A stretch of DNA of 64,000 bases from Escherichia phage PGN6866. This document shows, piece by piece, positions 4,466-54,799 of the stretch (positions are counted from its first letter, which is position 1; each line of letters begins with the position of its first letter). The notes under the pieces were generated by a model that was not told where the DNA came from, did not search any database, and saw only the letters and a program-made list of their open reading frames with translations. The stretch lies in the sequence record MT127620, one strand, 5' to 3'. A program made the position numbers and the translations under genes.

Positions 4466-4692
4466 GGCAAGTTTCCTTGCCTTGTATGTTTTACATCGTA
4501 CCCGATGAATTGAAGTATACATTAACCAATGATGGTTGCAATAGGGTAAAGCAAATTATTTTAAACTTTTTTATAGTGGGATAGATAAAAGAACGGGCGC
4601 GCGTGATACATCATAGGAAACGGCTTGTAAAGCAACAATAAGCGTCCTAAAACGCATCACAACGAGCTAAAAGGGAGTAAGGCATACAATCA

Positions 4693-16105: not shown

Positions 16106-16135
16106 ACCCTGCCTTCGGGCGGGGTTTTTTCGTTT
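16106..16135 (+). terminator. rho-independent terminator after the capsid gene
   Basis: 8-bp stem ACCCTGCC / GGCGGGGT with UUCG loop followed by TTTTTTCGTTTT. Confidence 0.6.
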
Positions 16136-16200
16136 TAAGACCTATACAAGCAAGTGTGTAATGTATATTCTTTGTCTACATATAACAAGGAGGACAACCT

Positions 16201-31409: not shown

Positions 31410-33065
31410 ATGCAACAGACAACTTACGCTCAGGTCAGAAGTCGTGACCCGAGAAATACTTTCTATGGTGTTAATCCGGGAGCGGCTTCGGCCTCTCCTT
31501 ATATGGCTAGACCAACTCAGACAGCAGATATTTCTATGTATCAACGTCCTGCTGTACCTTCATCTCTTGCGGGTCTTGTCTCTCAGGCAGAAGAAGATCA
31601 GAATGCTATGGTTAATCCGGGATTCCAGCAACGTCTTATGGAACAGCAGAATCAAGGAACTCCTACCAGTCTTCAGGGTATTGATATTGGAGCACCGGCC
31701 CCTGTAGCAGCTAATCCTAACCTATCCACTGATCAGGGTTTACAGGATGCTGGGCTTATGCCTAGTGACCCTCTTCCGGTAACACCTCCTCCTAAACCAC
31801 TAGAAGCTGGTCCTATAGAGTTTACTCCTTCTCAGGTGGAGCAGGCACAAGGTGTGATTAATACTCTTGCTCAAGGACAAGACGCTGGTGATGGGATGAC
31901 TGCTGCTACTCGTGCTAAAGATCAAGAACGTGTTAACAATGATATCTTGCAAGTTGCGAAAGCTAAAGACCCTTCAGAAGCTTGGAACAAACTACAGAAA
32001 GAACCATTCTATCAGAACTCTAGTTTCTACACAGGGTTGATGGGTGTAGGTCTTTCCATTATGTCAGGTAAGTCTCCTATCGAAGCTTTCCAGATTGGTC
32101 AGGGAATGGCTAATCAAGATGAGACTAAGAAGCAACTGGAAGCTAACCGTGATGCTCTGATTGAACAAGGTTTCTCTCAAGACTCAATCGCAGCTGCTAT
32201 TGCTAACGGAGACCCATCTCTTCTGAAGATGAAAGCTGTAGACCCTGCTCAGAAAGAAGCTCTGTATGCTGCTCGTGAAGAACGTCAGAATGCTGAATGG
32301 GACAGACGTCAACAGATTCAAGAGCAGGCTATGCGTGAACGTGCCGAGGAAACTCGTCGTGCTGCTGAAAAGAGAACTGATATGAACTTTGAACGTCAGA
32401 AAGAGTTGATTGGCTATCGTGATAAAGTTAAGGCTGAACGTGCTGAACAAGTTGCTCAAAGTTTCAACTTCCCCACGAAAGAAATTCGTAACGCTCAGAA
32501 TACAGCTGAAGGTACTATCGCTAAGCAATGGGCAGAGAAAGGTGGCTTGTTTAACCAGTCTAATAAAGACTTGGATTTGGCTGATAAAGCTGTTAAGGAC
32601 AAAGACTATCAGACGGCCCGTTCTGCTTACATGCAGGCTATCATGAACTCCGCAAGGGCTGAAATTGGTTCTACTCGTTCTCTCACTGAAGAAGATTTGG
32701 GACATTTTGCAGAAGACCCATCAATCTTTATCCGTGTAGGTAACAAGTTTGCTCTGAAGTCTGGATGGCGTCCTACTGATGCTGCTCTTGCTTATGCTCG
32801 TAAACAGGCTAACGTCGGTCACACCTCTGCTATGAAAGGTGTTGCTGATGCTAAGAGAGATACCATCAACGCTTATATTGGTTCTGGTATGGATAAGAAG
32901 AGAGCTACTGCATTGGTTAACCGTGCAATTCCTTCTGGCGGTTTCTATGACCCTCTTGGTGCTTTCTCTGAAGAAGCAGAGGAGGCAGTTGGTGGTGCAG
33001 CAACCAATCCTAAGCTTAACGGTGCTTTATCAGCTGTCGAAGACACTAGCTGGTTCACACAATAA
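31410..33065 (+). CDS. internal virion protein candidate
   Basis: 551 aa in the same co-oriented string. Confidence 0.4.
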   Translation: MQQTTYAQVRSRDPRNTFYGVNPGAASASPYMARPTQTADISMYQRPAVPSSLAGLVSQAEEDQNAMVNPGFQQRLMEQQNQGTPTSLQGIDIGAPAPVAANPNLSTDQGLQDAGLMPSDPLPVTPPPKPLEAGPIEFTPSQVEQAQGVINTLAQGQDAGDGMTAATRAKDQERVNNDILQVAKAKDPSEAWNKLQKEPFYQNSSFYTGLMGVGLSIMSGKSPIEAFQIGQGMANQDETKKQLEANRDALIEQGFSQDSIAAAIANGDPSLLKMKAVDPAQKEALYAAREERQNAEWDRRQQIQEQAMRERAEETRRAAEKRTDMNFERQKELIGYRDKVKAERAEQVAQSFNFPTKEIRNAQNTAEGTIAKQWAEKGGLFNQSNKDLDLADKAVKDKDYQTARSAYMQAIMNSARAEIGSTRSLTEEDLGHFAEDPSIFIRVGNKFALKSGWRPTDAALAYARKQANVGHTSAMKGVADAKRDTINAYIGSGMDKKRATALVNRAIPSGGFYDPLGAFSEEAEEAVGGAATNPKLNGALSAVEDTSWFTQ

Positions 33066-33132
33066 GACCTAAGTCCTGCCTTCTATAATGTATATAGGGG
33101 GTAGGACATTTTTATTTATAAAAGGAGACGTT

Positions 33133-40087: not shown

Positions 40088-41573
<1,486 letters not shown>

Positions 41574-41574
<1 letters not shown>

Positions 41575-41834: not shown

Positions 41835-42069
41835 AATGCATCTCTTTATAAACGGTTTCCGTGTTCTTCTTCCAGTTAGATAAACCGGTAAGAACCCTCT
41901 GAGCAACTTCATCAGCTGCTCTACTTCTTTCAATCTCTAACTCTTGCTGGTGCTTCTCTTTGTCCAGATTACTGCTGTCTGTTTGATATTCGTTAAACTT
42001 CATACCACCAAAGAATACAAGAGCTGAGAAAACGATAAACCCTAAGTTGTCACTTAATGTGTTTTGCAT
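41719..42069 (-). CDS. putative i-spanin (N-terminal TM plus coiled coil)
   Basis: ATG at 42069 after GGAGA; TM segment LGFIVFSALVFFGG then charged helical region; track start 42093 would include a terminator hairpin. Confidence 0.45.
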   Translation of the reverse strand: MQNTLSDNLGFIVFSALVFFGGMKFNEYQTDSSNLDKEKHQQELEIERSRAADEVAQRVLTGLSNWKKNTETVYKEMHYEKTKPVFYNVCASDEYVSLFNERQQQAINALTNKPKS

Positions 42070-42081
42070 GTTGTCTCCAAC

Positions 42082-42107
42082 GAAAAAAGCCACCCGGAGG
42101 TGGCTAA
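42082..42107 (-). terminator. rho-independent terminator (minus strand) after the SSB-like gene
   Basis: GCCACC-CGGA-GGTGGC hairpin with TTTTTT on minus strand. Confidence 0.5.
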
Positions 42108-42126
42108 GCTATAACAAGGAGAGTTA

Positions 42127-42873
42127 TTAGAATGGGCTATCGTTGTCGTCTTCGTAAGTAGAAGCAGGCTCTTTATCAATCGTAGGGATTGAAGGGGTAG
42201 CTTCTTTCTGCTCTGTTTCAGAAGCACGAGTAATTTCACGACCAGCCAGAGGCATGTTCTTAGCGTCATTAGCTTGAGTAAGCAGGTTGCGCTGGAACGG
42301 GAACATCAGTTGATAGGATGCTACGTTCTCATCGGTTTCAGCATACGGTTCGAAGAATACCAGAGGACTACGAGCTTCACCAACTGCTGCACGATATTTG
42401 GTTGGGATTGGAGAAATAGTCTTGATGGAGTTTTTAACTTCACCAGCTTTGTTAGTGTAAGAGTTAACCAGAATGTTAACAGGCTGACCTAACAGAACAT
42501 CCTTGAACCAAGACAGATCACCTTTCAGTGCTTGAATACTTGGGTCAATCATCTTGCAAAGATCAAGAATACCAGAGTTCTTAGCTCGTGGGTTTACATC
42601 ATAGCTCTTGAACTGGCAAGCCGGACGTGGTTCTAATGCCTTACCATCGGAATCTTTACCAGTAGCATCAACACCAATCAGCTCGAAAGCTAAATCCATA
42701 CGGAAAGCCGGATTCTTAGGAGTCACTGCTTTGGTCTTCGGGTCAACCCAAGGGTCACGATTGTGAACACCCAAACCTACTACACGAACGATACGTGCTT
42801 CGTACTCACCATCAGGGATGATGTCGTAGTTGGATTTACGAGAAGAAGTTGCGATAGTTGGAATCATAGACAT
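42127..42873 (-). CDS. single-stranded DNA-binding protein candidate (T7 gp2.5-like architecture)
   Basis: 248 aa ending in acidic tail YEDDNDSPF with terminal Phe; lies in the replication module. Confidence 0.5.
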   Translation of the reverse strand: MSMIPTIATSSRKSNYDIIPDGEYEARIVRVVGLGVHNRDPWVDPKTKAVTPKNPAFRMDLAFELIGVDATGKDSDGKALEPRPACQFKSYDVNPRAKNSGILDLCKMIDPSIQALKGDLSWFKDVLLGQPVNILVNSYTNKAGEVKNSIKTISPIPTKYRAAVGEARSPLVFFEPYAETDENVASYQLMFPFQRNLLTQANDAKNMPLAGREITRASETEQKEATPSIPTIDKEPASTYEDDNDSPF

Positions 42874-43289
42874 ATTTTAATTTCCTTATTTAATTTGAAA
42901 GATTGTTGCTCTCTTTGAGCGGTTATGTATAGTATACATTACGCTTATACCGATAAGAGTACTATATAATATAAGTATCTTTGGTAGTAGATATAACACA
43001 CTAGTAATGTATATATTGTATAGCTGATAAAGTTATTGCAGGCTTGTATATTGGGCAATTCACAGAATCCCTTGCAAGTACCGAAGGGCAGGAGCCACCT
43101 GCGAGATAAAAATAGAGAATTAAGGAATCCTTGATTTAGGTTGTAGGGACTCCTAGGGACTTTGATTCTCTATTTAAAAGAATATTAATTACTTATTACC
43201 TAAATAATTAACTAACTTACTTAAACCAAATTCAATAAGAATAGATAAAAAGATTATTCCTAAGAAAGCTAAAAAGTAAAGGATATAAG

Positions 43290-43466
43290 TTACCATTCAA
43301 GTAAACCTTTAAAGTTAGACTGTTCTACTATCCTCTGATAACGAAGATTAGAATCAGCTTGTTTCTTTAACATCTCATTATATTTATCTCTGATAGAGTC
43401 TTTATAAACTACAGGTTCTTTAAATAATGAGATCTTCTTTTTCTCAGAGTTAGATAGTACATCCAT
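43290..43466 (-). CDS. hypothetical protein
   Basis: Trimmed to internal Met (MDVLSNSEKKK); overlaps 43450..43677. Confidence 0.3.
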   Translation of the reverse strand: MDVLSNSEKKKISLFKEPVVYKDSIRDKYNEMLKKQADSNLRYQRIVEQSNFKGLLEW

Positions 43467-43677
43467 CACAAGTAAGATCTCCGAGAAGGGACAGCGATAA
43501 CAAACGAGACTGCTCATCGCTATACAGTTGATCAATCTCTTCTTTAAGTTTTGCCAACTCGATGAAATTTATAAGTTGACCATGTTCAAGACAGTCTGTT
43601 TTTAGTATAAATAAAACTTCAGCGTCTGTTGAATCTTCAGTTGAATATTTATCAATGTATTCCATTTTCACTCCCAT
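43450..43677 (-). CDS. hypothetical acidic protein
   Basis: 75-aa ORF. Confidence 0.35.
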   Translation of the reverse strand: MGVKMEYIDKYSTEDSTDAEVLFILKTDCLEHGQLINFIELAKLKEEIDQLYSDEQSRLLSLSLLGDLTCDGCTI

Positions 43678-43820
43678 AAATTATGACCAAGACTTAGCTT
43701 TTACTTCAACATATGTTTTAACTTCACCTTTCAAGACTTCCTGAGAAGCATTTGCACTTTCCTCAGAGTGATGTACAACGGTGATCTCTTTCTTTCCAAT
43801 CTTATAAGTGTGAATCCAAA

Positions 43821-43988
43821 TCATACTTCTTCCTTGTATTCCCAATTTCTTTCATAATACCCAGAGTTATAGTTTAGGGCGCACTTCTCGGCCTCTTCTA
43901 TGTCGTCAGTGTTTAGGATATTTACCCATCCTCCAACTTCATCAAAACCTTCTTCTACTTCGTTAAACCATACACTATACTTTTTCAT
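43821..43988 (-). CDS. hypothetical protein
   Basis: Start MKKYSVWF in ATGA overlap with upstream stop. Confidence 0.35.
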   Translation of the reverse strand: MKKYSVWFNEVEEGFDEVGGWVNILNTDDIEEAEKCALNYNSGYYERNWEYKEEV

Positions 43989-44161
43989 CGAGAAGTTCTT
44001 CCCCAATCTTTTACATAGCATCGACCGTTAACCCACTTTGTCTCTGACTTAAATTCCTGAGACAATCTCACTTCACAGTCTTCTCTACTGGCATCTCCTC
44101 CGATATCAATCAGATACAGGAAAAGAGCTATACCTAAAGCCCAAAGAATTATCTTTTTCAT
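43985..44161 (-). CDS. small secreted/membrane protein (58 aa)
   Basis: Hand-translated MKKIILWALGIALFLYLIDIGGDASREDCEV...; ATGA overlap with upstream stop; below track cut-off. Confidence 0.35.
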   Translation of the reverse strand: MKKIILWALGIALFLYLIDIGGDASREDCEVRLSQEFKSETKWVNGRCYVKDWGRTSR

Positions 44162-44568
44162 CGAATCACCAAAGGCTCTTCAGAGTACACAGGAGCGGCT
44201 ATTTCTACAGGAGGTGCTGCCCTAAGGTCATTAAGTCTTACGCCCTTCAGCATACCATCTAGGTGGTCCTTTTTGGGGATTCCAACAGGGAAGTCATCAA
44301 TCCAGATATCGACGAAGAAACCTAACTGTCGACACACCTCATCCTTCTGCACACCATTACAAAAGATGACAGGGATTTGCAGGGTCTCTGCATCATAGAG
44401 GATATCCACGTTATCATAACCATTAGGCTCTGAGAAACGGAAAGTAACGAATCTTACATCATGTCCATACCCTTTCATCAATCCTATCACATCTCTCCAC
44501 AGTCGTCTGTCTGCTGTGTAAGTGTCATCATAATCTAAACCAATATTCATGTCAAACCCTTTAGACAA
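44158..44568 (-). CDS. HAD-like phosphatase/nucleotidase candidate
   Basis: 136 aa; N-terminal GLDYDDT fits HAD motif I DxDxT. Confidence 0.4.
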   Translation of the reverse strand: MSKGFDMNIGLDYDDTYTADRRLWRDVIGLMKGYGHDVRFVTFRFSEPNGYDNVDILYDAETLQIPVIFCNGVQKDEVCRQLGFFVDIWIDDFPVGIPKKDHLDGMLKGVRLNDLRAAPPVEIAAPVYSEEPLVIR

Positions 44569-44782
44569 GAAAAGCCGCCCGAAGGCAGCTTCTTATTTAA
44601 CTGTTCACTTTAGCTTCAAGTGTTTCGTTTTCAATACTCAAGTCAATCACTACACCAGTAAGCTCAACGACTGCTTGGCGAAGGGCATCTTTACCCATAG
44701 AGTGTACTTGAGATAAGAAGAAAGCTTTACCTTCTTCAGTGGATAGGGTTTCTTTTAATTCAGAAGCAGTCATTGATATTCC

Positions 44783-45693: not shown

Positions 45694-45698
45694 TCACC

Positions 45699-47543
45699 TT
45701 AGTGTGTGTGCATCCAGTTAAGTCCAATCTGACAATCAGATGCCAGAGGACATTCCATGTTCAGATACTCGCCAGCTTTCTTAACACAAAGCTCAGTGTG
45801 CTCTTTGAGTTTCTGTACATCATTACGGTTTACTGAGAATTGACCTTCATCGTGCATATCAATTACCTTAGCACAACGAACCTTATCTTTCTCAATCCAC
45901 TTGTTAAGGAACATCATAGCATATTTCATAACAACAGCACCAGCACATTGCAGGAGTGTGTTAAGGGCTTTATGAACCATAACCTTACCAGTGGCATCCC
46001 GTCTCATTGTAATCTTACGACCATCAACTCCAATCAAGTATCCTTGAGCAGCTTTCTCTGTCATACGATCAATGAGGATTGCAATACATGGGTTCTCTGC
46101 TAAGAAACGTGCTCGCATCACTGAACCTTCGTCAGCCCCACCACCTACAATTGAACCAAGCTTAGCGTCACCAGCACCATAGTTGAATGCGTAGATAAAC
46201 GTCTTAGCGTTGTCACGAGTAGGAAGACCAGCAAGTTTCTGGTTGTGGGAGTGGATATCACCTTCAAGGAGAATATCACGATACATAATAGCAGAAGCTA
46301 AACCACGTTCTGCCAGAGCTTTCTTAGCTGGGTTGTTCTCTTCGATTGCCTCAGCAAGCATATCCCTACACTCTTTAATGAGGTAGTGAGCGAGCATACG
46401 AAGTTCAAGTCCAGAACCATCATACCCTAAGAATACTTCTTTACCAGCGGGTATGTAATATTTGTAAGCACCTACAGGTTTGTCTTTCTTCCCCGGCTTA
46501 CCTTTCTCGTAAATTACGTTAGTACCTTTTCGTATATAACAACCATCAGGAACAACGTTAGTAATAACGAAAGGACGAGAGTGATCACTGTCTGAGTTAT
46601 AGTCAGACTCAAACAAACTGCGACACTCGTGACCAAACAAACCACGGGAGGGAATATTAACCACGATACGATGTTTGAATCGAAAAGTTGGCGTAGCGCA
46701 GCTGTTAGCTTCTGCCGAAAGTTTACCATCTTCGCGTTCCTTTGCTATAAGTCCACTGATAAGACCCAGCCTGTGAGCCGCTACAACGCGTCTCTTAAGC
46801 AAACTTCCGACACTCCCTAGCTCACCCCCTAACCCTTCTTCAAGAGTCTCCTCGAGGTTTGTAGGAGCTGTAGGCCACTTGTTTGATGTGGCTAGTGCTT
46901 TCTTAATCTCATCAAACGTTACAGGATTACGTCGATTAGGGTTTAATCCCAAACCAAATACGTAAGCCTTCATATAGTTCTTAGTTTTAAACCTAAAATG
47001 CTTTTCTAAGAACTTCTTAATATCAGCGTCAACCATCTCGGCTGTCTGTTTTTGCTTAGCATTACCTCGCATCCAAGCAGTATACCATGCTTGGTATGTT
47101 CCATACTTTCTCATATCTTTCTTAATTTCGAAAGTATTCCAAGGCTTCTTAGATACGTTAAACTCTGGAGGAAGAAAGCCCTCATCCATAAGAGCTTCTT
47201 TAACTCGTGCATCTTTCGATGGGTCAAAGTCTACGTATTCGACACAGGTGAAAGCTCCACCAATATCTTCTCTCTTCAGCCCAACCCTATCACAATAGGC
47301 TTGAGGCCACTTCTGTAAAGCTCCAGACTTCTTAAACGGCTTCATATAAGTAGAGCCATCTAATCTCATCTTAGGTAAGAGAGGAATCAGTTCTTTGTCA
47401 ATATTAACAATAATCTCTTTAAGGAGGTGAACATACCACCGAGCATTTCTTCGGTTGAAACTCACTCCGTGCTTTGCTTGCTTAGAGATTATATCAGCGA
47501 CAGTCATCTCTGTCAAAAATGGAAGAGCGTCCGGGTTGCTCAC
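45699..47543 (-). CDS. DNA polymerase family A, polymerase domain only
   Basis: 614 aa; motif A LGYDGSGLELRMLAHY, motif B RDNAKTFIYAFNYGAGDAKLG, motif C IDMHDEG; GTG start after AAGGAG; no exonuclease motifs. Confidence 0.85.
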   Translation of the reverse strand: MSNPDALPFLTEMTVADIISKQAKHGVSFNRRNARWYVHLLKEIIVNIDKELIPLLPKMRLDGSTYMKPFKKSGALQKWPQAYCDRVGLKREDIGGAFTCVEYVDFDPSKDARVKEALMDEGFLPPEFNVSKKPWNTFEIKKDMRKYGTYQAWYTAWMRGNAKQKQTAEMVDADIKKFLEKHFRFKTKNYMKAYVFGLGLNPNRRNPVTFDEIKKALATSNKWPTAPTNLEETLEEGLGGELGSVGSLLKRRVVAAHRLGLISGLIAKEREDGKLSAEANSCATPTFRFKHRIVVNIPSRGLFGHECRSLFESDYNSDSDHSRPFVITNVVPDGCYIRKGTNVIYEKGKPGKKDKPVGAYKYYIPAGKEVFLGYDGSGLELRMLAHYLIKECRDMLAEAIEENNPAKKALAERGLASAIMYRDILLEGDIHSHNQKLAGLPTRDNAKTFIYAFNYGAGDAKLGSIVGGGADEGSVMRARFLAENPCIAILIDRMTEKAAQGYLIGVDGRKITMRRDATGKVMVHKALNTLLQCAGAVVMKYAMMFLNKWIEKDKVRCAKVIDMHDEGQFSVNRNDVQKLKEHTELCVKKAGEYLNMECPLASDCQIGLNWMHTH

Positions 47544-47559
47544 TTTATACTCCTTTAAA

Positions 47560-47982
47560 TTATTGGTAAAGTAAATCTGTAAATGCTTGGTTATCTTCTA
47601 CTACATTCAGCATGGTTGCTTCATCACTATAAGCCCTAACTGTCCCGTTGACAACTGTCCAAGGAGGGGGCGGAGGTGGTGTATGTGTAGCTCTGGCTTC
47701 ACGAGGTTGTTCTCGTACCAGATGAGCCACAACCCTCTGATTAGCAACTTCTTCTCTTTCTCTAATAGCTCTCTGAATGTAGGCCAGCTTCATACCCCAA
47801 GCTTCTTCAAACTCTTGAGGGTGTTTATCACTGATAACCACATACTGACGTTCAGGAATACCAGAGCGAATCTCTGATAATAATTCATGGAACAAATCTA
47901 GTTCATGTTCAGTGAGATTCATTTCGATATCATCCCACTTTAGAACTAAGAAACGGTTTTGGTGTCTAGCTGGTAATGGCAT
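47560..47982 (-). CDS. hypothetical protein with poly-Pro tract
   Basis: 140-aa ORF. Confidence 0.4.
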   Translation of the reverse strand: MPLPARHQNRFLVLKWDDIEMNLTEHELDLFHELLSEIRSGIPERQYVVISDKHPQEFEEAWGMKLAYIQRAIREREEVANQRVVAHLVREQPREARATHTPPPPPPWTVVNGTVRAYSDEATMLNVVEDNQAFTDLLYQ

Positions 47983-48145
47983 CCTACTCCACCTCTACTT
48001 CAATGTAAGTTCTCTCGCCAACGTCGTCTTTTAAGACCCATGACTTGGCATCTTCTTCAGACTTAAAAGCTTTCACAACGCTGTATCCCCCTTCCCATTC
48101 ATCACCGAACCAGCGCTGTCCTACGTAAATGTATTCTTTCATTAT

Positions 48146-48430
48146 TTAACCTTTTGGGAACGGCATTAAAAATTCCATAGCAGATTTAATTTCATTATTG
48201 ATTCGTGCATCTCGATAAGAGATAAACTTACCTTTGCTATCACGTAACATTACATGAGTTCTAGCCGTTTTATGAGGAAGTAAAGTGATACTGGTTGGGA
48301 TAGTATCAATCCCCACAGAGAACGAATTAACAGTCTTACTCTTGGTTAACAGGTAAGACCAAGTACGTGGTTTCTGCTCTGGGCGGTTAGGGTATGTGTC
48401 TCGAATCTGTACCATAGCTAACTTATTCAT
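48146..48430 (-). CDS. hypothetical protein, tandem paralogue A
   Basis: 94 aa; shares DSKGKFISYRDA...FLMPFPKG with neighbour. Confidence 0.45.
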   Translation of the reverse strand: MNKLAMVQIRDTYPNRPEQKPRTWSYLLTKSKTVNSFSVGIDTIPTSITLLPHKTARTHVMLRDSKGKFISYRDARINNEIKSAMEFLMPFPKG

Positions 48431-48431
48431 A

Positions 48432-48686
48432 TTAAACTCCTTTGGGGAACGGGATGAGGTTTTCTACTGCAACACGGAAAGATTTTTCTACGTTCTTATT
48501 CTTATAAGAGATAAATTTTCCATCAGCTCCTCGAAGGAGTACGTTAGTGCGAGCTGTATTTGGGTTTTGTTGAATCATAGAACGAATGATGTTCTCTGAA
48601 CCTCTATGCTTATTGGTGAATTTCCAACTGATAGTTTTACCGGTACGAGTTACATCAATGATATTTACGATTTTTACAATAGACAT
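48432..48686 (-). CDS. hypothetical protein, tandem paralogue B
   Basis: 84 aa; GADGKFISYKNK...NLIPFPKGV. Confidence 0.45.
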   Translation of the reverse strand: MSIVKIVNIIDVTRTGKTISWKFTNKHRGSENIIRSMIQQNPNTARTNVLLRGADGKFISYKNKNVEKSFRVAVENLIPFPKGV

Positions 48687-48755
48687 ATTTATTACCTAAG
48701 AAGTTTAATTTGGTTTATATAAAAGAAAAGGCCACCTGATTAGGCAGCCTTTGTT

Positions 48756-49049
48756 CTAGAGACGAAGCCAAGTTTGATAGTCAGCTTCAGTGTAATGGTT
48801 GTTTCGAGAGTTGTTTTTCATTTCCTTGAGAGTAGCTCTCAGGTCAATGTTATGCTCTCTCCTTGTTCTATTCGGGTCTGTATCTTCTAATAGATGGGAG
48901 TGATCACTACAAGAGTAGTGCTTATAGTGGTCCCTGTATCCTCTACTTGGAGAATACTTGGTCATTAAAGTTGCAACTCTTTTTACACCCTCTGCTTTAC
49001 AGAATTTACAATAAGTGTGAATTGTACATCTTTTTGTTTCTGCTGACAC
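48756..49049 (-). CDS. hypothetical Cys/His-rich protein
   Basis: 97 aa; CKFCKAEG...HYSCSDHSH. Confidence 0.35.
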   Translation of the reverse strand: MSAETKRCTIHTYCKFCKAEGVKRVATLMTKYSPSRGYRDHYKHYSCSDHSHLLEDTDPNRTRREHNIDLRATLKEMKNNSRNNHYTEADYQTWLRL

Positions 49050-49067
49050 TATAACCTCTTTATGAGC

Positions 49068-49346
49068 TTAAAGCTCCTTTGCGTGCTCCAGCTGCTTTTC
49101 CAGCTCGATCACCACTTTTGCCGCCGTTTGAACGGTTTGAGCTGACTGATTCAACACGTAAGTTGCTTGACGCATTAGAGCCTCCAGACTTGACAGCTCG
49201 TTTGTGTCCAACGTCTTTACCTCTGACAGCAGCTTTTCCATCGCGCTTTTCAACGATGCGACGTGCACGGTGGCGCTGAGCATCTCCGCTCTTGCTCCCA
49301 ATTCCCGTTTCACCGCGCTTGATCGCAGTCCTTCTTTCTTGTGCAT
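49068..49346 (-). CDS. hypothetical helical protein
   Basis: 92 aa; host-like codon usage with frequent CTG; preferred over the overlapping 49060..49374 frame. Confidence 0.4.
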   Translation of the reverse strand: MHKKEGLRSSAVKRELGARAEMLSATVHVASLKSAMEKLLSEVKTLDTNELSSLEALMRQATYVLNQSAQTVQTAAKVVIELEKQLEHAKEL

Positions 49347-49373
49347 AGTCTCTTTTTCCTACATGATCTGCCA

Positions 49374-49703
49374 TTAGATTTCTCCTGATTCTCTTTGATT
49401 AAAGGTGTGGATGGCGTGGCAATTAGCACACAATATCCTGCACTTCCTCATCTCTTCTTTTACTTGAGATAAAGATCTGGTGTGCCCTTTGGAGAGTTCG
49501 AATGACTTAGTTAATGGATTTAAATGATCAAACTGAAGAGCAGATGCGTGGCCCTTAAAGCCACACTCAGAGCATCCATAGAATGTTTTAACTCTACGGA
49601 TAAAAGCTAGTTGCCTAACTCTTCTTTTCTCGTTATCTGCCTTTCTCTTATCTCTATTTCCTGGGTCGGCCCATCTACACGAGTCATTGCAAAACCTCTG
49701 CAT
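49374..49703 (-). CDS. HNH endonuclease
   Basis: 109 aa; CSECGF...LQFDHLNP...CRILCANCH. Confidence 0.65.
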   Translation of the reverse strand: MQRFCNDSCRWADPGNRDKRKADNEKRRVRQLAFIRRVKTFYGCSECGFKGHASALQFDHLNPLTKSFELSKGHTRSLSQVKEEMRKCRILCANCHAIHTFNQRESGEI

Positions 49704-49791
49704 TATATACTTCGTTACAAATGGTACCTTACAGGTTTCACATTCCTTGTGGTATGTTGCTATTTGGACCCCCTTGTGTGAACTATAAGAA

Positions 49792-50241
49792 TCAACTCTC
49801 TTCTAGTATAATCCTGTACATTGCTTCCTGAGCATCTTTCATATCTACATATGGACCAAGCACCTCACTATCTTTTCTGATGAACCAATCACCTTCTTTG
49901 AATATCAGAGATACGTGAACATCTTTATTATTTGCTTTGACTGCTCGCCCCCATGCTGGGTTATGTCGGGATAAATTATCAATATGACAATTATCAGTGC
50001 GCCCATCCAGATGGTGTAAATAAGATTGAGGCCACTGGCCTGTCTCTTTATACCATACGGCTTTCTTCAATTCAACAATGCCACATGGTAGTCCTATGTA
50101 TAGGATATTAGGCTGTAAGCTAAAATTATACCACTTAGATGTGAAAGGGATTAGAGGTTCCCTTTTGGTGAAAAACATCGGCCCCTCTCGAATGTATTCT
50201 AGACTATCTATACACTTCAAAATCTTTTCACTATAAAGCAT
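49792..50241 (-). CDS. HNH endonuclease (HNH_3-like)
   Basis: 149 aa; YLHHLDGRTDNCHIDNLSRHN. Confidence 0.55.
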   Translation of the reverse strand: MLYSEKILKCIDSLEYIREGPMFFTKREPLIPFTSKWYNFSLQPNILYIGLPCGIVELKKAVWYKETGQWPQSYLHHLDGRTDNCHIDNLSRHNPAWGRAVKANNKDVHVSLIFKEGDWFIRKDSEVLGPYVDMKDAQEAMYRIILEES

Positions 50242-50981
50242 TAACTGTTTACCTTTTCCATAGCTTTAACAATAGCTTTACAGAAACCAGAACGAACAAT
50301 GTCATCTGATTCGCCGTCTACAATCTCAGCAAACTCATACAGATCGTGTTCATCAATAAAGTTAGTAGCCCAAGTAAGACCGCTCTCACGACCACGCATA
50401 TCATGCTGGTTAGTATCACCCATGCAGAACAGCTGAGAGGTTTCTCCCAATCGAGTCATGATTGAGAAGGCTTCATCTTTAGTGGTGTTCTGGAACTCAT
50501 CAACAATAACAATAGCATCATTGAAAGAACGACCACGGAGATATTCCAGAGGTACGAACTCAATGTTACTGTTACCGAGCTGGCATTCATAGAACCCCTT
50601 ACCGTATCGCTGAGTAATAACATCAATGATAGGCATCAGGTACGGTTCAAACTTCTCACGCATTCCTCCCGGAAGTAACCCAAGAGAGTTGCCCATGCCG
50701 ACAGAAGGGCGACTCAGAATGATCTTCTGAATCTTACCGCTCTTCAGTGCATCAATAACTGTGGAAGTGATTACAAAGGTCTTACCACAGCCCGCAGGAG
50801 CGTCTGTGAACACAACTTGTTTAGTCTTAATAGCATTGAGTAGCTCAGACTGAAACTGGTTCTGAGGGACTACAGGCTTTGCTAAAACCACCTCTTCATA
50901 CTCTCGCTTACCTTTACGAGTAACAAGTGCTTCCCGACGAAGGTCTTTCCGTGATTCTTTCCGTGATTGACGACGACTCAT
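50241..50981 (-). CDS. phoH: PhoH-like ATPase
   Basis: 246 aa; Walker A FTDAPAGCGKTF and Walker B IVIVDEFQN. Confidence 0.8.
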   Translation of the reverse strand: MSRRQSRKESRKDLRREALVTRKGKREYEEVVLAKPVVPQNQFQSELLNAIKTKQVVFTDAPAGCGKTFVITSTVIDALKSGKIQKIILSRPSVGMGNSLGLLPGGMREKFEPYLMPIIDVITQRYGKGFYECQLGNSNIEFVPLEYLRGRSFNDAIVIVDEFQNTTKDEAFSIMTRLGETSQLFCMGDTNQHDMRGRESGLTWATNFIDEHDLYEFAEIVDGESDDIVRSGFCKAIVKAMEKVNS

Positions 50982-51163
50982 TTACGCTCTCCAATTTCTT
51001 CGTAATGACACTCAGTAGTTAAGCAGTCTTTACAGATTGCTGTATAAACCCTGACGTTAGTAAATCGTTTGTTCTTCCCTTTGGTTGGAGAGCCTTTGGC
51101 AAGCTCTCTGATAACCTTGTTACTTAAGTGAAGGTTTGTTCCTTCACATTTAGAGCACTTCAT
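50978..51163 (-). CDS. small zinc-ribbon protein
   Basis: 61 aa; CSKCEG...CKDCLTTEC. Confidence 0.35.
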   Translation of the reverse strand: MKCSKCEGTNLHLSNKVIRELAKGSPTKGKNKRFTNVRVYTAICKDCLTTECHYEEIGERK

Positions 51164-51479
51164 GGTTCATATCTTTATGAATCCTGTAAACAGCTGTCGC
51201 CATACAAGCAACAGCCTCGTTGTGTGGGAGGTGCATCCCTGTAGAACCATCCCAATCTTTGAACTCATTGTCAAAGACTCCGGTAGGCTCTGGATATAGA
51301 GCTTGCAGCTCCACTAGATCATTAGCAACTTGTTGCCATTTATCATCAGACCAGATAGGGTCATCCAACCAGTAATACAAATAGGAATGGATGATCAATT
51401 GCCTTCTATGCCGATTTATTACTTCAGCGGGACTTATCTCACTTCCATTTGAAGTCCTAAATGTATTACTGTCAATCAT
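51150..51479 (-). CDS. hypothetical protein
   Basis: 109-aa ORF. Confidence 0.4.
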   Translation of the reverse strand: MIDSNTFRTSNGSEISPAEVINRHRRQLIIHSYLYYWLDDPIWSDDKWQQVANDLVELQALYPEPTGVFDNEFKDWDGSTGMHLPHNEAVACMATAVYRIHKDMNHEVL

Positions 51480-51661
51480 TTTACAACCTTAAATTTGAAT
51501 GTTGTTGGGTGGTAATAGTGCAATCTATTGATAGTGTGCTTTGTTTCAAGGTATATCCTGCAAGAGTGGCACATGACATGGGTCAGACCAGTCACAGGGT
51601 TGGGTTTGAAGTTAGCGATAGGTTTCTCTTTCTTACAGAAGCTACAGACTTTCTTTTCCAT
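51476..51661 (-). CDS. small zinc-ribbon protein
   Basis: CSFCKK...CHSCRIY; trimmed to internal Met MEKKVCSF. Confidence 0.3.
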   Translation of the reverse strand: MEKKVCSFCKKEKPIANFKPNPVTGLTHVMCHSCRIYLETKHTINRLHYYHPTTFKFKVVK

Positions 51662-51875
51662 CTTTTCTCCAGTGGTCAACGAATTGCTGAAACACTTTAC
51701 GGTCAAATGTGAAATTACGAGCAATTCCGCATTCTCTAAAAGTGGCAGGCATATAATCTACATCACCTTCAGATGTATGACCATAGACTTGAATAAGCTT
51801 CTTAATCTTATCCTTCTCTCTTCGAGGAAGCATTCTAAATGCCTCCTGAATATCTGTAATATGTTTGATTTTCAT
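51642..51875 (-). CDS. hypothetical protein
   Basis: 77 aa; ATG at 51875 after AGGAA. Confidence 0.4.
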   Translation of the reverse strand: MKIKHITDIQEAFRMLPRREKDKIKKLIQVYGHTSEGDVDYMPATFRECGIARNFTFDRKVFQQFVDHWRKDGKESL

Positions 51876-51887
51876 CAGAAATTCCTG

Positions 51888-52022
51888 CTAATCCTCTGGA
51901 TTATGAGAACAGCAATACTCACATACTCCACAACAAGGGCAAATTTCTACACTTGGGTCATATGCATCATCAACTGTCATCCCACACTTGGTGCAGAACA
52001 CATCGTCATCTTCTTCCAACAT
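51888..52022 (-). CDS. small Cys-rich zinc-binding protein (43 aa)
   Basis: Hand-translated MLEEDDDVFCTKCGMTVDDAYDPSVEICPCCGVCEYCCSHNPED; GGAGA upstream; TAATG overlap; below track cut-off. Confidence 0.35.
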   Translation of the reverse strand: MLEEDDDVFCTKCGMTVDDAYDPSVEICPCCGVCEYCCSHNPED

Positions 52023-52270
52023 TAATTCTCCAAACAAGAATCATTCATCAGTAGCTCCAAACTATCAAGTGTGTAGTAATAACCAAAGAATGGGGCTGTT
52101 GACTTGGAAACCTTTTTATCAAAAAGAGATTGAGAAAGATTTATTTCTACTCCAGCATCTTCAAGCTGTTGTTTTGTGGGGTATGTAATGAAAGAGCAAA
52201 GCACTTCTGTGTACTCCCCTCTGTCTGTCTCTTCAACACGACTCAGAATCCAAATACTTTTACTAGCCAT
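52022..52270 (-). CDS. hypothetical protein
   Basis: 82-aa ORF. Confidence 0.4.
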   Translation of the reverse strand: MASKSIWILSRVEETDRGEYTEVLCSFITYPTKQQLEDAGVEINLSQSLFDKKVSKSTAPFFGYYYTLDSLELLMNDSCLEN

Positions 52271-52271
52271 T

Positions 52272-52928
52272 TTAACTCTCCAAAGTTTTCTTCAGAGCTG
52301 CCCATGAGATTGGGTAGAGTTTAGCCATCTCTTCATCTAGAGATTTAGCAAACACTCGAACTTCATATTGAGCGTGAGAGGAGAGTCGCTGACGGCACAA
52401 CTCAAACCAGCCATACAAAGAACCAGTCCACACCCACTCAGTGATCATCCCCTGAGGAAGAACAAATCGAGCTTGCTCTGGTGCAATAAATTCAATCAAC
52501 TTGTCATATGCTGCTAGAGAAGCTTCATATGCATCGTTAATCAGCATTAATGCTTCAGCTCGCTCTCCGTCGATGAGTTGAATCCCTGAACCTGCATGGA
52601 GGTCCGAAGGTCTCGCAAAAATCTCTTTAGGGATGAAGACTTCAACTGCTCCATCTTTATACCGCCGGGACATTTCGTTCCACGAGAATCCAACCTGATG
52701 CTTCTGTAGTTGACGAGCGATTGCAATTGGAGCCTTACAACGAAAGGACACTTGTGGATGACGGAACGGGGTGCAATGTTTCTCTCTAGCTAAGAAGTTA
52801 ATCAGCCGAGTATCACGATCATTCAAATCACCCTCTCGAACAACACCAAAAGAAACCCTTGCAGCATTAACAACAGTTTTATCACTGCCCATAGCTTCAA
52901 TCAATGTTGCTTGCAATTGTTCATTCAT
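52272..52928 (-). CDS. thyX: flavin-dependent thymidylate synthase (ThyX)-like protein
   Basis: 218 aa; RHPQVSFR and SWNEMSRRY resemble the ThyX RHR...S and SxxESxRY motifs, with Pro in place of the second Arg. Confidence 0.55.
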   Translation of the reverse strand: MNEQLQATLIEAMGSDKTVVNAARVSFGVVREGDLNDRDTRLINFLAREKHCTPFRHPQVSFRCKAPIAIARQLQKHQVGFSWNEMSRRYKDGAVEVFIPKEIFARPSDLHAGSGIQLIDGERAEALMLINDAYEASLAAYDKLIEFIAPEQARFVLPQGMITEWVWTGSLYGWFELCRQRLSSHAQYEVRVFAKSLDEEMAKLYPISWAALKKTLES

Positions 52929-53400
52929 ACTTCAACTTCTCCTTGTTATAAGCAATCTCTGCTTCCTCTGGAGTGTGGAAAGTTCCTAAATGCTTAGTCT
53001 TTCCATTAACTCCGATGATAGCTCTGAATTTTGTACCACTAGCCGTTTCTCTGATGTAAACACCCATTGGAAGTTTTCCAGCTTTTCCGGCTCTGTTGTA
53101 TTGTTTTCTGTTATGACAGTTTGTAGATGGGTCAACATCTCTTAGATTTTTAAGAGAGTCATCCAGTTTAATCTGGTTGATATGATCAATCTCAAACTCA
53201 GGCATCTTTCCATAAGAGAAAAACCAAGCTAATCGACACGCTCTGTAAGATTTCCCTTCATAATAAATGTACCTGTAACCGGATGTTGAGACACACCCAG
53301 CAATGCTCCCTGATACTCTCCTACCTTTAGTATTCTTCCACCTAAAGATTCCAGTATCAGGGTCATATGCTAGGTCTTCTTTTATCTTATCAGTTAACAC
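52921..53400 (-). CDS. HNH homing endonuclease with AP2-like DNA-binding domain
   Basis: 159 aa; EFEIDHINQIKLDDSLKNLRDV...NCHNRK then YRGV-type AP2-like C-terminus. Confidence 0.65.
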   Translation of the reverse strand: MLTDKIKEDLAYDPDTGIFRWKNTKGRRVSGSIAGCVSTSGYRYIYYEGKSYRACRLAWFFSYGKMPEFEIDHINQIKLDDSLKNLRDVDPSTNCHNRKQYNRAGKAGKLPMGVYIRETASGTKFRAIIGVNGKTKHLGTFHTPEEAEIAYNKEKLKYE

Positions 53401-53665
53401 CTAAAGCTGTATCCAAAAATGCTTTCAGGTTTGCTTCAGTCTGCATACCAGAGAGGCTGTAGTGTGCACCACTGTTACGGTCAGGAACAACGAAAGCAGG
53501 GATACTTCGTACACCATACTTAACAGCTTGCTCACGACCATCACCTTCAAGGATGTTAATCTCTTCCACTTCTACATCAAACTCCTTAACAACCTTCTCA
53601 AAGGTAGGAGCCATTGCTTTACATGGAGCACACTGATCACTATAAAACTTAATTACTTTAGACAT
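53390..53665 (-). CDS. thioredoxin/glutaredoxin-like protein
   Basis: 91 aa; active site CAPC, cis-Pro region SIPAF. Confidence 0.7.
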   Translation of the reverse strand: MSKVIKFYSDQCAPCKAMAPTFEKVVKEFDVEVEEINILEGDGREQAVKYGVRSIPAFVVPDRNSGAHYSLSGMQTEANLKAFLDTALGVN

Positions 53666-53673
53666 GTAAATCC

Positions 53674-53853
53674 TTATGCAGTCAGGAGGTGAAGCAGGAA
53701 TGGGATAACAACAGCTACGATAACCATGATGGTTGATGCTGTTTGAATCTCACCTTTCTTATCAGGAGTTTCTTCAATAAGCTTACCAGAAGCCCAATAA
53801 ATACCACCACCAATAAAGATAGCCCAAATACCCCATACGATTGCTGATAACAT
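53674..53853 (-). CDS. small two-TM membrane protein (59 aa)
   Basis: Hand-translated MLSAIVWGIWAIFIGGGIYW...IMVIVAVVIPFLLHLLTA; AAGGA upstream; replaces track ORF 53715..53987. Confidence 0.4.
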   Translation of the reverse strand: MLSAIVWGIWAIFIGGGIYWASGKLIEETPDKKGEIQTASTIMVIVAVVIPFLLHLLTA

Positions 53854-53913
53854 ATATCTATATCCTTATAAATAAGTTCGCCCCACCTCGGGTTAGGAGA
53901 CAGGGCGGAGGTT

Positions 53914-54477
53914 TTAGTAAGACACGTCACCACTTGAATGGGACATGTTGCTCTTGACGAAGTAGCAATATTTGCCAAGACCTTCATTAATTTCTTGAAG
54001 CATACTCTGATCGACAGGGTAGGTGGCTAAATCACCATCAAACTCATCCATCTTCTCAATAATACACATCAAGGTCATGCACATATCAGAGAGCATACCG
54101 TCCATATCTAGGTCAGCATTACCCTCTGAGAACCAAGCATGAGAAAGATAGTTAGCTGCTGTAGCGTCCACTTTAACGCAGTGGTAACGCATACGTTCAG
54201 CAATACGATCTCCTACCTGTCGTGCGTAATCTTCCAGCTCATCAAACATACCATGAACACCCTGAAATCCTGCACCAGAGACGTTCCAGTGGTAGTTTTT
54301 AGCTTTGATATGCAAGAGTTCCATGTTAGCTTGTAAGCAGCTCAGGATGTGTTCTAGGCTGTTTCCACTAATCATACCTTGCATCGTTTCAAGGCGAGAG
54401 ATTGATAGGTCGGACCGGTCTAACATGCTATAACTGTCACGACCAATCTCAGGTAAATCAAAGACATTCTTATGCAT
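53914..54477 (-). CDS. Dps-like ferritin-superfamily protein
   Basis: KNYHWNVSGAGFQGVHGMFDELEDYARQVGDRIAER matches the Dps signature; start set to ATG 54477 after GGAG. Confidence 0.6.
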   Translation of the reverse strand: MHKNVFDLPEIGRDSYSMLDRSDLSISRLETMQGMISGNSLEHILSCLQANMELLHIKAKNYHWNVSGAGFQGVHGMFDELEDYARQVGDRIAERMRYHCVKVDATAANYLSHAWFSEGNADLDMDGMLSDMCMTLMCIIEKMDEFDGDLATYPVDQSMLQEINEGLGKYCYFVKSNMSHSSGDVSY

Positions 54478-54799
54478 TTGGGTTTTCTCCATCAAGTTCA
54501 ACTGAGTTAGCAACGTTACGTGCAATATTATCCATTACCTGCTGGGTAATTACGATGCAGTTCTGTGGGTCTACTGACTTAGAACGCCCCATTTCAGGGT
54601 CATACACCTTAACTCGCTTAGCAGTTGAACCTGTAACCTGAAGAACCTTCAACAGATACCCCTGATTACCAATAGACCAAGCAACAACATCACGATTCTT
54701 GATAAAGCGACCAAGCATATCACGATGATAAAACTGTTGCATCACCTTGGATTTTGTAATCTCTTCAGTGGGCGGGGCCACTTTACTCAAATCTAACAT
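54470..54799 (-). CDS. hypothetical protein
   Basis: 109-aa ORF. Confidence 0.4.
   Translation of the reverse strand: MLDLSKVAPPTEEITKSKVMQQFYHRDMLGRFIKNRDVVAWSIGNQGYLLKVLQVTGSTAKRVKVYDPEMGRSKSVDPQNCIVITQQVMDNIARNVANSVELDGENPNA

What the first reader, a model, noticed from the sequence alone, without database searches (positions are those of the whole stretch)
43005..43200. Structured AT-rich intergenic element with an 11-bp inverted repeat, a palindrome and direct repeats
The 417-bp intergenic region upstream of the SSB-like gene contains a plus-oriented TAATGTATA at 43005..43013. It is followed by a perfect 11-bp inverted repeat AAATAGAGAAT / ATTCTCTATTT (43110..43120 and 43165..43175) that encloses the palindrome AAGGAATCCTT (43122..43132) and two TAGGGACT direct repeats (43144..43161). 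No plus-strand gene lies downstream, so this may be a small non-coding RNA, a replication origin or a regulatory protein-binding site.
Basis: seen in the sequence. Interest (0 to 1): 0.5.

Follow-up and report, generated by a model that had tools for sequence, protein, structure and literature searches.

The report
Unannotated phage promoter and noncoding RNA
In this phiEco32-type E. coli phage, the gap upstream of the SSB-like gene holds an unlisted copy of the phage sigma-factor promoter that points against all neighbouring genes and probably makes a conserved, folded RNA of about 155 nt that codes for nothing and whose job (regulator or replication primer) is still open.

Summary
Taken alone they are chance-level: one perfect 11-bp inverted repeat per 64 kb is what simulations give. 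The window is a phiEco32-like phage (Kuravirus). The plus-strand TAATGTATA (43005-43013) lies 11 nt after TTGGTAGTAGATA (42981-42993). This composite occurs only twice in the window. The other copy is P68, a published promoter of the phage sigma factor gp36 that carries the G-37, A-34 and AATG bases reported to contact gp36. The predicted start is A43020. A hairpin begins exactly there (43020-43036) and shows compensatory changes in relatives, with G.U pairs that only work on the plus strand. Then come a swappable middle domain and a 93-nt block (43083-43175). The stretch is non-coding, matches no Rfam family, and is absent from E. coli and from more distant relatives. Best reading: an unlisted seventh gp36 promoter driving a stable structured non-coding RNA of about 155-160 nt. 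Its function is not resolved; a replication-primer origin is the main rival. No transcript data were available.

The parts
42981..42993 (+). -35 box TTGGTAGTAGATA of the plus-strand promoter (positions -39 to -27; G-37 = 42983, A-34 = 42986)
   Evidence: There are only two exact copies in the window; the other belongs to P68. G-37 and A-34 are the bases reported to contact the gp36 C-terminal domain (PMC12276001). Mean pairwise difference is 0.057 per site, against 0.50 in the spacer. G-37 and A-34 are kept in all 25 sequences.
43005..43013 (+). -10-type element TAATGTATA (AATG = -14 to -11)
   Evidence: Exact match to the published gp36 consensus tAATGTAtA. There are 5 exact copies in the window against 0.63 expected. 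Pairwise difference is 0.0 among 18 phages. One metagenome contig has G-11 changed to A.
43020..43020 (+). Predicted transcription start (A)
   Evidence: Inferred, not measured. Two published rules give the same position: the start lies 6-8 nt after the motif, and AATGTA is centred at -11.5.
43020..43036 (+). 5'-terminal hairpin (43020-25 pairs with 43031-36; loop 43026-30; G43023.U43033)
   Evidence: Compensatory changes are seen at two pairs: UA/GC, and CG/UA/AU. A third pair alternates GC/GU. 98.3% of cells are paired against 90.4% in shuffles, with 0/500 shuffles reaching the covariation score. Slid controls give 22-50% paired. The stem starts at +1/+2 in every variant.
43037..43082 (+). 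Variable middle domain (type 1 here)
   Evidence: In 12 phage records it is replaced by an unrelated stretch of about 67 nt (type 2). The flanks UUGCA and CCUGCGAG are kept. 1-nt indels occur.
43083..43109 (+). Invariant segment with hairpin GCAGG-AGCCA-CCUGC (43088-43102)
   Evidence: Pairwise difference is 0.02. The only variable base, C/A at 43095, lies in the loop. The hairpin is in the RNAalifold consensus.
43110..43175 (+).
   Evidence: MFE structures. z is about -3.4 against shuffles on both strands. The arms are invariant in 20 distinct sequences, so no covariation is available. Two single changes were seen: A43123G gives G.U, and T43173A in Ptacy1479 breaks a pair.
43122..43132 (+). 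AAGG-loop-CCTT mini-palindrome inside the long hairpin
   Evidence: The arms AAGG/CCTT are invariant. All variation is in the centre: AAT, AAAT, ATT, AAAC.
43144..43161 (+). Two TAGGGACT direct repeats, 10 nt apart
   Evidence: Both copies change together to (T)AGGACT in the phages that lack gp41.
43020..43179 (+). Proposed non-coding RNA (about 155-160 nt)
   Evidence: Conservation collapses after about 43179: 0.043 inside the hairpin against 0.425 after it. G 39 and C 26 on the plus strand. Fold energy is -45.8 kcal/mol on the plus strand and -35.3 on the minus strand. No Rfam hit. No conserved ORF.
43181..43300 (.). Tract of 80% A+T just downstream (mostly the gp41 ORF)
   Evidence: GC is 0.18-0.23. 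The tract is deleted in at least 9 sampled phages.
42933..42941 (-). Known middle promoter P40 (TAATGTATA) for gp40, back to back with the new promoter
   Evidence: It matches the SU10 promoter listed between CDS37 and CDS38 and P40 in Table S3 of PMC8948821.
42127..42873 (-). gp40, the 'SSB-like' gene
   Evidence: Homologue of phi32_40. No Pfam or PDB sequence match, and its PHROG family has unknown function. The single-sequence AlphaFold model is unusable, with pLDDT 36.7. One GenBank record calls it an ssDNA-binding protein.
43189..43296 (-). gp41, a 35-aa hydrophobic peptide
42088..42105 (-). Intrinsic terminator right after gp40
   Evidence: 7 pairs, 5 of them G-C, followed by TTTTTCG.

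Best explanation
The region is a self-contained transcription unit on the plus strand, spanning 42981 to about 43179. It points against the surrounding middle genes.

Host RNA polymerase carrying the phage sigma factor gp36 (helped by gp79) binds a promoter that has the functional boxes and spacing of the characterised middle promoter P68. It starts at A43020. The product is a non-coding RNA of about 155-160 nt.

The RNA begins with a 5'-terminal hairpin. From general E. coli RNA biology, such a hairpin shields the 5' end from RNase E-dependent decay. A replaceable middle domain follows. That hairpin would block 3' exonucleases and so define the 3' end.

The RNA most likely acts as RNA. At the least it is perfectly antisense to any transcript that reads through from gp41 into gp40. 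The invariance of its 3' domain suggests that it also contacts an unchanging partner.

What is shown: motif identity, conservation pattern, covariation of the 5' hairpin, absence of coding potential. What is inferred: promoter activity, start site, 3' end, stability, function.
For: - Promoter identity. GGTAGTAGATA-N12-AATGTATA occurs only at P68 and here. The -35 box has the same N11 spacing to the 9-mer in both.
- Published contacts. P68 is a published, in vitro active gp36 promoter. The cryo-EM and mutational contacts G-37, A-34 and A-14 A-13 T-12 G-11 (PMC12276001) are all present in register.
- Conservation has the shape of a promoter: boxes 0.057 and 0.0, spacer 0.50.
- The hairpin starting at +1/+2 shows compensatory substitutions at two pairs and GC/GU alternation at a third.
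- Strand. The G.U pairs would be A.C mismatches on the other strand. The plus strand folds 10 kcal/mol better. Local GC skew is positive only inside the unit.
- The block 43083-43175 differs by 0.02-0.04 per site, against 0.274 at gp40 third codon positions. It is present in all 98 Gordonclarkvirinae records.
- Conservation ends right after the hairpin.
- 1-nt indels and a domain swap rule out a conserved ORF.
- The unit is intact in phages that lack gp41, and in phages with a 145-bp insertion between it and P40. So it is an independent module.
Against: - No transcript data of any kind were available.
- The six published gp36 promoters (P6, P13, P26, P40, P58, P68) do not include this one. The primary paper (Pavlova 2012) could not be read. 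The published bioinformatic searches scanned only the strand of the downstream gene.
- No intrinsic terminator follows on the plus strand, so the 3' end is conjecture.
- The long hairpin and the rest of the 3' domain show no covariation. They are simply invariant, and a DNA-level function would explain that equally well.
- One metagenome contig has G-11 changed to A in the promoter.
- One phage has an uncompensated change in the stem.
- Near-total sequence invariance is more than RNA secondary structure alone requires.
Confidence: 0.5

Rival explanations
1. Transcription-primed replication origin. The plus-strand gp36 promoter fires into a G-rich, structured stretch followed by a tract of 80% A+T. 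The transcript forms a persistent RNA-DNA hybrid and primes rightward leading-strand synthesis. Known examples are the T7 primary origin (promoters plus an AT-rich region), T4 oriF/oriG (a middle promoter plus an unwinding element) and ColE1 RNA II.
For: - The promoter has no gene to express.
- GC skew on the non-template strand is positive within 42970-43179.
- GC falls to 0.18-0.23 immediately downstream.
- The unit sits in the middle (replication) gene block, between the DNA polymerase and the exonuclease genes, next to the gene one record annotates as SSB.
- Strong sequence conservation would fit recognition by replication proteins.
Against: - The AT-rich tract is mostly the gp41 ORF and is deleted in at least 9 phages, while conservation stops at the hairpin.
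- Cumulative GC skew follows transcription direction and shows no separate inflection here.
- A covarying 5' hairpin and a sharp 3' conservation boundary fit a discrete stable RNA better.
- There are no iterons beyond two 8-mers.
- gp40's SSB identity is unverified.
Confidence: 0.22
2. A DNA-level protein-binding site. The inverted repeat, the AAGG/CCTT palindrome and the two TAGGGACT repeats one helical turn apart are operators for a phage or host DNA-binding protein. That protein would control the back-to-back promoters P40 and the plus-strand one, or organise the DNA.
For: - The block is invariant without covariation.
- The direct repeats are spaced 10 bp apart and change together in one clade.
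- The palindrome arms are kept while the centre varies.
Against: - The motifs lie 90-155 bp downstream of the plus-strand start and 185-250 bp upstream of the P40 start. In some phages they are a further 145 bp from P40. That is far for an operator.
- Each motif is individually chance-level.
- This reading does not explain the dedicated promoter or the covarying 5' hairpin.
Confidence: 0.1
3. An element of the minus-strand mRNA. On transcripts reading from gp41 into gp40, the hairpin followed by UUUUUAUCUC would act as a leaky terminator, an RNase III processing site, or a stabiliser of the gp41 3' end. This would insulate the P40-gp40-terminator unit.
For: - The element sits immediately after the gp41 stop codon.
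- A U-rich run follows the hairpin only on the minus strand.
- The hairpin is as significant against shuffles on the minus strand, z -3.3 to -3.75.
- gp40 has its own promoter and terminator.
Against: - The stem is AT-rich with a 44-nt interior, and the terminator scan does not call it.
- The two G.U pairs and the 5' hairpin become A.C mismatches on this strand, and the whole-unit fold is weaker: -35.3 kcal/mol, z -1.5.
- The element is retained unchanged where gp41 is deleted.
- This reading leaves the plus-strand promoter unexplained.
Confidence: 0.1
4. No function of its own. The motifs would be chance features of a spacer that is conserved only because these phages are close relatives.
For: The inverted repeat alone is expected about once per 64 kb. 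All 98 phages belong to one subfamily.
Against: Within the same alignment, neighbouring spacer segments differ by 0.35-0.50 per site and synonymous sites by 0.27, against 0.0-0.06 for the boxes and the 3' domain. The composite promoter has zero chance expectation. The 5' hairpin shows compensatory changes.
Confidence: 0.03

Closest known systems
phiEco32 middle promoter P68 (gp36/gp79-dependent)
   Same: It has the same 13-nt -35 box TTGGTAGTAGATA, the same 11-nt spacing, and the same AATGTATA(TA) element. The contact bases G-37, A-34 and AATG(-14..-11) are all present. The transcript starts with a hairpin close to +1.
   Different: P68 heads the middle operon and is followed by a ribosome-binding site and a gene. 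This promoter faces the opposite way, has no ORF behind it, and is not in the published list of six.
Phage lambda oop RNA (from my own knowledge)
   Same: A short RNA made from its own promoter, running against the flow of the main operon, in a gap next to replication genes. It was historically debated as primer versus antisense regulator.
   Different: oop is 77 nt, uses a sigma-70 promoter, ends at a classical terminator and overlaps the cII 3' end. Here the RNA is about twice as long, uses a phage sigma factor, has no terminator, and keeps its sequence even where the convergent gene (gp41) is absent.
Transcription-primed origins: T7 primary origin, T4 oriF/oriG, ColE1 RNA II (from my own knowledge)
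   Same: A phage-specific or dedicated promoter points into a structured or G-rich stretch and then into AT-rich DNA. In T4 the promoter is of the middle class, as here.
   Different: No mapped hybrid or initiation site exists here. In T7 and T4 the promoters also express downstream genes. The AT-rich tract here is dispensable in some relatives.
T7 RNase III processing hairpins (R0.3-R18.5) (from my own knowledge)
   Same: An irregular intergenic hairpin of about 60-66 nt, with a long lower stem and an internal loop, in a lytic coliphage.
   Different: The T7 sites lie on the coding strand between genes and are not invariant in sequence. Cleavage here is untested.

Membership tests
gp36-dependent promoters of phiEco32-like phages | tAATGTAtA element with AATGTA at -14 to -9 | tested here: met
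   Exact TAATGTATA at 43005-43013.
gp36-dependent promoters of phiEco32-like phages | -35 region contacted by the gp36 C-terminal domain (G-37, A-34 in the solved middle promoter) | tested here: met
   G42983 and A42986 are in register, and the box is identical to P68.
gp36-dependent promoters of phiEco32-like phages | Boxes conserved in relatives while the spacer drifts | tested here: met
   Difference per site is 0.057, 0.50 and 0.0 for the -35 box, spacer and -10 box. One contig has G-11 changed to A.
gp36-dependent promoters of phiEco32-like phages | Lies upstream of, and points toward, a middle or late gene | tested here: not met
   All annotated genes and long ORFs downstream are on the opposite strand.
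gp36-dependent promoters of phiEco32-like phages | Transcript 5' end mapped 6-8 nt downstream; gp36-dependent in vitro | not testable with these tools
   This needs primer extension or in vitro transcription.
Rho-independent terminator | G+C-rich stem, short loop, U-run directly after the stem | tested here: not met
   Not called on either strand. The stem is AT-rich with a 44-nt interior. There is no U-run on the plus strand.
Any described RNA family (Rfam 15) | Covariance-model match | tested here: not met
   No hit overlaps the element in 40000-46000 at E up to 10. No tRNA or tmRNA was found.
Transcription-primed origin (T7 / T4 oriF / ColE1 type) | Dedicated promoter followed by an easily unwound AT-rich region | tested here: inconclusive
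   The promoter is present, and 43181-43300 is 80% A+T. But that tract is the gp41 ORF and is deleted in at least 9 phages.
Transcription-primed origin (T7 / T4 oriF / ColE1 type) | Mapped RNA-DNA hybrid and replication start | not testable with these tools
   This needs marker-frequency analysis, 2D gels or R-loop mapping.
Iteron-type origin | Three or more direct repeats of about 17-22 bp | tested here: not met
   The only local direct repeat in the element is the pair of 8-bp copies; the other family found (13 nt, 85%, 351 nt apart) lies outside it.
Type I toxin-antitoxin antisense RNA (gp41 as a small hydrophobic toxin) | The RNA co-occurs with, and overlaps, the toxin gene | tested here: not met
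   The RNA unit is intact and conserved in phages where gp41 is deleted.

The most novel reading that the evidence does not exclude
The 93-nt invariant 3' domain would define a new phage RNA class, made from a sigma-appropriation-type promoter dedicated to a non-coding product. It would work by engaging an unchanging partner. [quoted passage not shown]
Probability: 0.25. Interest if true: 0.7.

Novelty: new member of a known kind. Interest (0 to 1): 0.5.

Why it matters
phiEco32 is the model for phages that replace the host sigma factor (gp36) and remodel RNA polymerase (gp79). Its transcription map is considered complete with six promoters.

A seventh promoter that serves no gene would add a non-coding product to that programme. 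It is a twin of the promoter used in the structural work. It would also give a concrete, small target of about 200 bp for finding either the first regulatory RNA or the replication origin of this widespread group. Members of the group are often proposed for therapy.

The 93-nt block is more conserved than the second codon positions of the neighbouring gene. That marks it as one of the most constrained sequences in these genomes.

Tried and rejected
- **Rfam and tRNA.** The Rfam E-value scan and ARAGORN found nothing in the element.
- **Coding potential.** The only plus-strand ORF is 43036-43134, 32 codons with a TTG start. It is broken by 1-nt indels and by the domain swap in relatives.
- **Mimicry of host sequence.** No blastn match in 5,426 E. 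coli genomes or in PLSDB plasmids.
- **Trans base-pairing within the phage.** No complementarity longer than 11 nt elsewhere in the window, which is chance level by my own estimate.
- **Second copy or diverged homologue.** nhmmer finds only the element itself in the window. It finds nothing in the gp40 loci of Grimontviridae, Lahexavirus and three IMG/VR relatives. The metagenome and IMG/VR pattern scans returned only close relatives.
- **Covariation in the long hairpin.** Two alternative inner folds were counted. Both are fully compatible and neither is informative.
- **Terminator reading.** Rejected.
- **gp41 antitoxin reading.** Rejected because of the phages that lack gp41.
- **CRISPR I-E repeat mimic.** I compared, from memory, the hairpin with a GCCA loop followed by GAUAAA. 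I dropped it because the loop base varies (C/A) and the stem differs.
- **CsrA-sponge idea.** There are four GGA motifs. By my own rough estimate that is not above expectation, so I did not pursue it.
- **GC-skew search for an origin.** The skew only tracks transcription direction.
- **Checking the 'SSB-like' label.** No Pfam or PDB hit, and the single-sequence AlphaFold model was unusable at pLDDT 36.7.
- **Primary phiEco32 papers.** The 2008 and 2012 J Mol Biol papers are not held.

Full report
**What the window is.** Megablast of 42000-44500 hits 98 phage records at 80-98% identity. All are phiEco32-like coliphages of the genera Kuravirus, Suseptimavirus and Nieuwekanaalvirus, subfamily Gordonclarkvirinae. 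The finding lies between two minus-strand genes. The other is the 35-codon phi32_41 (43189-43296). Every annotated neighbour is on the minus strand, including the sigma factor gp36 (40467-41114) and the DNA polymerase. The true spacer is therefore 315 bp, not 417 bp.

**The observation.**
- Taken singly they are unremarkable. The window has one perfect inverted repeat of 11 bp or more with a spacer of 60 nt or less, and Markov simulations give 0.97.
- TAATGTATA within one mismatch occurs 19 times against 19.35 expected.
- Exact TAATGTATA is enriched: 5 copies against 0.63 expected.

**The promoter.** TAATGTATA is the published consensus of promoters read by E. coli RNA polymerase carrying phiEco32 gp36. 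Six are known: P6, P13 and P26 (late), and P40, P58 and P68 (middle).
- The minus-strand copy at 42933-42941 is P40. It matches the SU10 sequence listed between CDS37 and CDS38.
- The plus-strand copy at 43005-43013 is in none of the lists I could read.
- It is preceded by TTGGTAGTAGATA (42981-42993). That 13-mer occurs only once more in the window, at 54858-54870 on the minus strand. There it lies the same 11 nt upstream of AAATGTATA, and that site is P68.
- The composite pattern has two matches against zero expected.
- The 2025 cryo-EM study of the gp79-gp36 open complex on a middle promoter reports contacts of gp36 with A-14, A-13, T-12 and G-11, and with G-37 and A-34. Mutating them abolishes activity. 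Counting back from AATG, both P68 and the plus-strand site carry G-37 and A-34. The late promoters P13 and P26 carry A at -37 and a different box, TAAGACCTA.
- With AATGTA at -14 to -9 and starts 6-8 nt after the motif, the predicted +1 is A43020.
- The published computational searches scanned only the strand of the downstream gene. That would miss this site. I could not read the primary 2012 paper.

**Comparative evidence.** I aligned the spacer from 17 GenBank phages, and later from 25 distinct sequences including IMG/VR and metagenome contigs. Mean pairwise difference per site among 18 phages:

| Segment | Difference per site |
|---|---|
| gp40 third codon positions | 0.274 |
| gp40 second codon positions | 0.054 |
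| Between the two promoters | 0.354 |
| -35 box | 0.057 |
| Promoter spacer | 0.50 |
| -10 box | 0.0 |
| 43083-43109 | 0.02 |
| 43110-43175 | 0.043 |
| After 43176 | 0.425 |

This is the footprint of a promoter followed by a constrained product that ends at about 43179.
- The 98-nt core is found in all 98 records of the subfamily at 91.8% identity or more. The lower values reflect mostly three small indels.
- The unit behaves as a module. It is intact in at least nine sampled phages that have lost gp41. It is also intact in phages with a 145-bp insertion between it and P40.
- The stretch 43037-43082 is replaced by an unrelated sequence of about 67 nt in 12 records, while its flanks stay.
- Single-base indels inside the conserved part exclude a conserved reading frame.

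**RNA structure.** The plus-strand RNA from 43020 folds to -45.8 kcal/mol, z about -2.3 to -2.5. The complementary strand gives -35.3, z -1.5. RNAalifold gives three consensus elements.
1. A hairpin at the very 5' end, with 43020-25 pairing with 43031-36. It carries real covariation. One pair is UA in 18 sequences and GC in 2. Another is CG in 15, UA in 3 and AU in 2. A third alternates GC (12) and GU (8). 98.3% of cells pair, against 90.4% in shuffles and 22-50% when the partner is slid. No shuffle out of 500 reaches the covariation score. In every haplotype the stem starts at +1/+2. The G.U pairs exist only on the plus strand.
2. GCAGG-AGNCA-CCUGC (43088-43102). The stem is invariant, and the only variable base is in the loop.
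3. On the RNA it extends from 11 to 16 pairs through two G.U pairs.

The third hairpin is significantly stable against shuffles on both strands, z about -3.4. But it never varies in a way that tests pairing. Two alternative inner folds fit equally well. Among the single changes, A43123G keeps a wobble pair, T43173A (Ptacy1479) breaks one, and changes in the AAGG-loop-CCTT element all fall in its centre.

**What it is not.**
- No Rfam family, tRNA or tmRNA.
- Not an intrinsic terminator on either strand.
- Not similar to anything in E. coli genomes or plasmids.
- Not complementary to another part of the window beyond 11 nt.
- Not repeated in the window.
- Not present upstream of the gp40 homologue in more distant relatives (GAP52, 7-11, P59, LAh_8, Vp_R1) or in IMG/VR contigs with 67-69% gp40 identity.
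- Not a gp41-specific antitoxin RNA, since it outlives gp41.

**Mechanism.**
- Shown: a complete P68-type promoter pointing into a gene-less, conserved, non-coding stretch, and a covarying hairpin at its predicted start.
- Inferred: the promoter fires in the middle phase with gp36 and gp79. The 5' hairpin protects the 5' end from decay. The long hairpin sets or protects the 3' end. The outcome is a stable RNA of about 155-160 nt.
- Once made, it must be antisense to any read-through from gp41 into gp40. gp40 otherwise runs from its own promoter to its own terminator at 42105-42088.
- That does not explain why 93 nt are frozen. Neither antisense pairing nor hairpin stability needs that. I take it as a sign of contact with an invariant partner.

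**Rivals.** The main rival is a transcription-primed replication origin. It fits the orphan promoter, the plus-strand G excess (39 G against 26 C; positive skew only inside the unit) and the 80% A+T tract that follows. It fits less well with the sharp conservation boundary at the hairpin and with the loss of the AT-rich tract in some phages. Genome-wide skew only tracks transcription direction. A pure DNA operator and a minus-strand mRNA element are weaker, and pure chance is excluded by the conservation contrast.

**Verdict.** The most likely object is an unlisted seventh gp36 promoter plus a new, family-less non-coding RNA. This is a new member of a known kind (phage small RNAs and phage sigma promoters) with unknown function. 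Confidence in the transcription-unit reading is about 0.5 as stated, or about 0.7 if the primer variant is counted with it. Interest is 0.5.

Noticed in passing
window 4516..4524 (-): A fifth exact TAATGTATA lies in a stretch with no long ORF (about 4284-4801) near the genome end. It may be another unlisted gp36 promoter. It has no P68-type or late-type -35 box.
   Followed up: partly
window 16125..16167 (+), 33052..33094 (+), 41178..41198 (-): The late promoters P13 and P26 share an upstream TAAGACCTA box at about -38 to -30. The middle promoter P68 and the new promoter share TTGGTAGTAGATA. So gp36 promoters seem to come in two -35 classes that match the temporal classes. A TAAGACCTA-TAATGTTTA pair also sits just upstream of the sigma gene itself.
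   Followed up: no
window 45700..54500: No counterpart of the published middle promoter P58 (SU10 P56) was found in this phage. This holds both for the motif within one mismatch and for its flanking sequence.
   Followed up: partly
L007 701..1173 (EcM-vB1; also ES17, myPSH2311, myPSH1131 and several metagenome contigs): An insertion of about 145 bp carrying an annotated 48-aa minus-strand ORF separates P40 from the plus-strand promoter in one group of phages.
   Followed up: no
window 43189..43296 (-): gp41 is a 35-aa, almost entirely hydrophobic peptide (PHROG 24970, unknown function). It is cleanly deleted in at least nine sampled relatives.
   Followed up: partly
window 43144..43161 and relatives (A1 columns 155-172): Both TAGGGACT repeats lose a G together, becoming (T)AGGACT, in the clade that lacks gp41. 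The repeat period changes from 10 to 9 nt.
   Followed up: no
L039-L041, about 170 bp upstream of the gp40 homologue: IMG/VR relatives with 67-69% gp40 identity carry a different spacer that is conserved among themselves and rich in repeats: CTAGCAAAGCTAG ... GCTAAGCTAAGCTATATGC. It has no TAATGTATA.
   Followed up: no
window 42923..42941: The P40 -10 element is half of a near-palindrome, TTATGTATA-G-TATACATTA. This places a one-mismatch plus-strand copy of the motif directly opposite it. The partner is not conserved in Suseptimavirus.
   Followed up: no
window 42127..42873 (-): The 'SSB-like' label of gp40 has no support from Pfam, PDB sequences or PHROG annotation. It rests on one GenBank product name and on an acidic C-terminal tail ending in F. 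The single-sequence structure model was unusable.
   Followed up: partly
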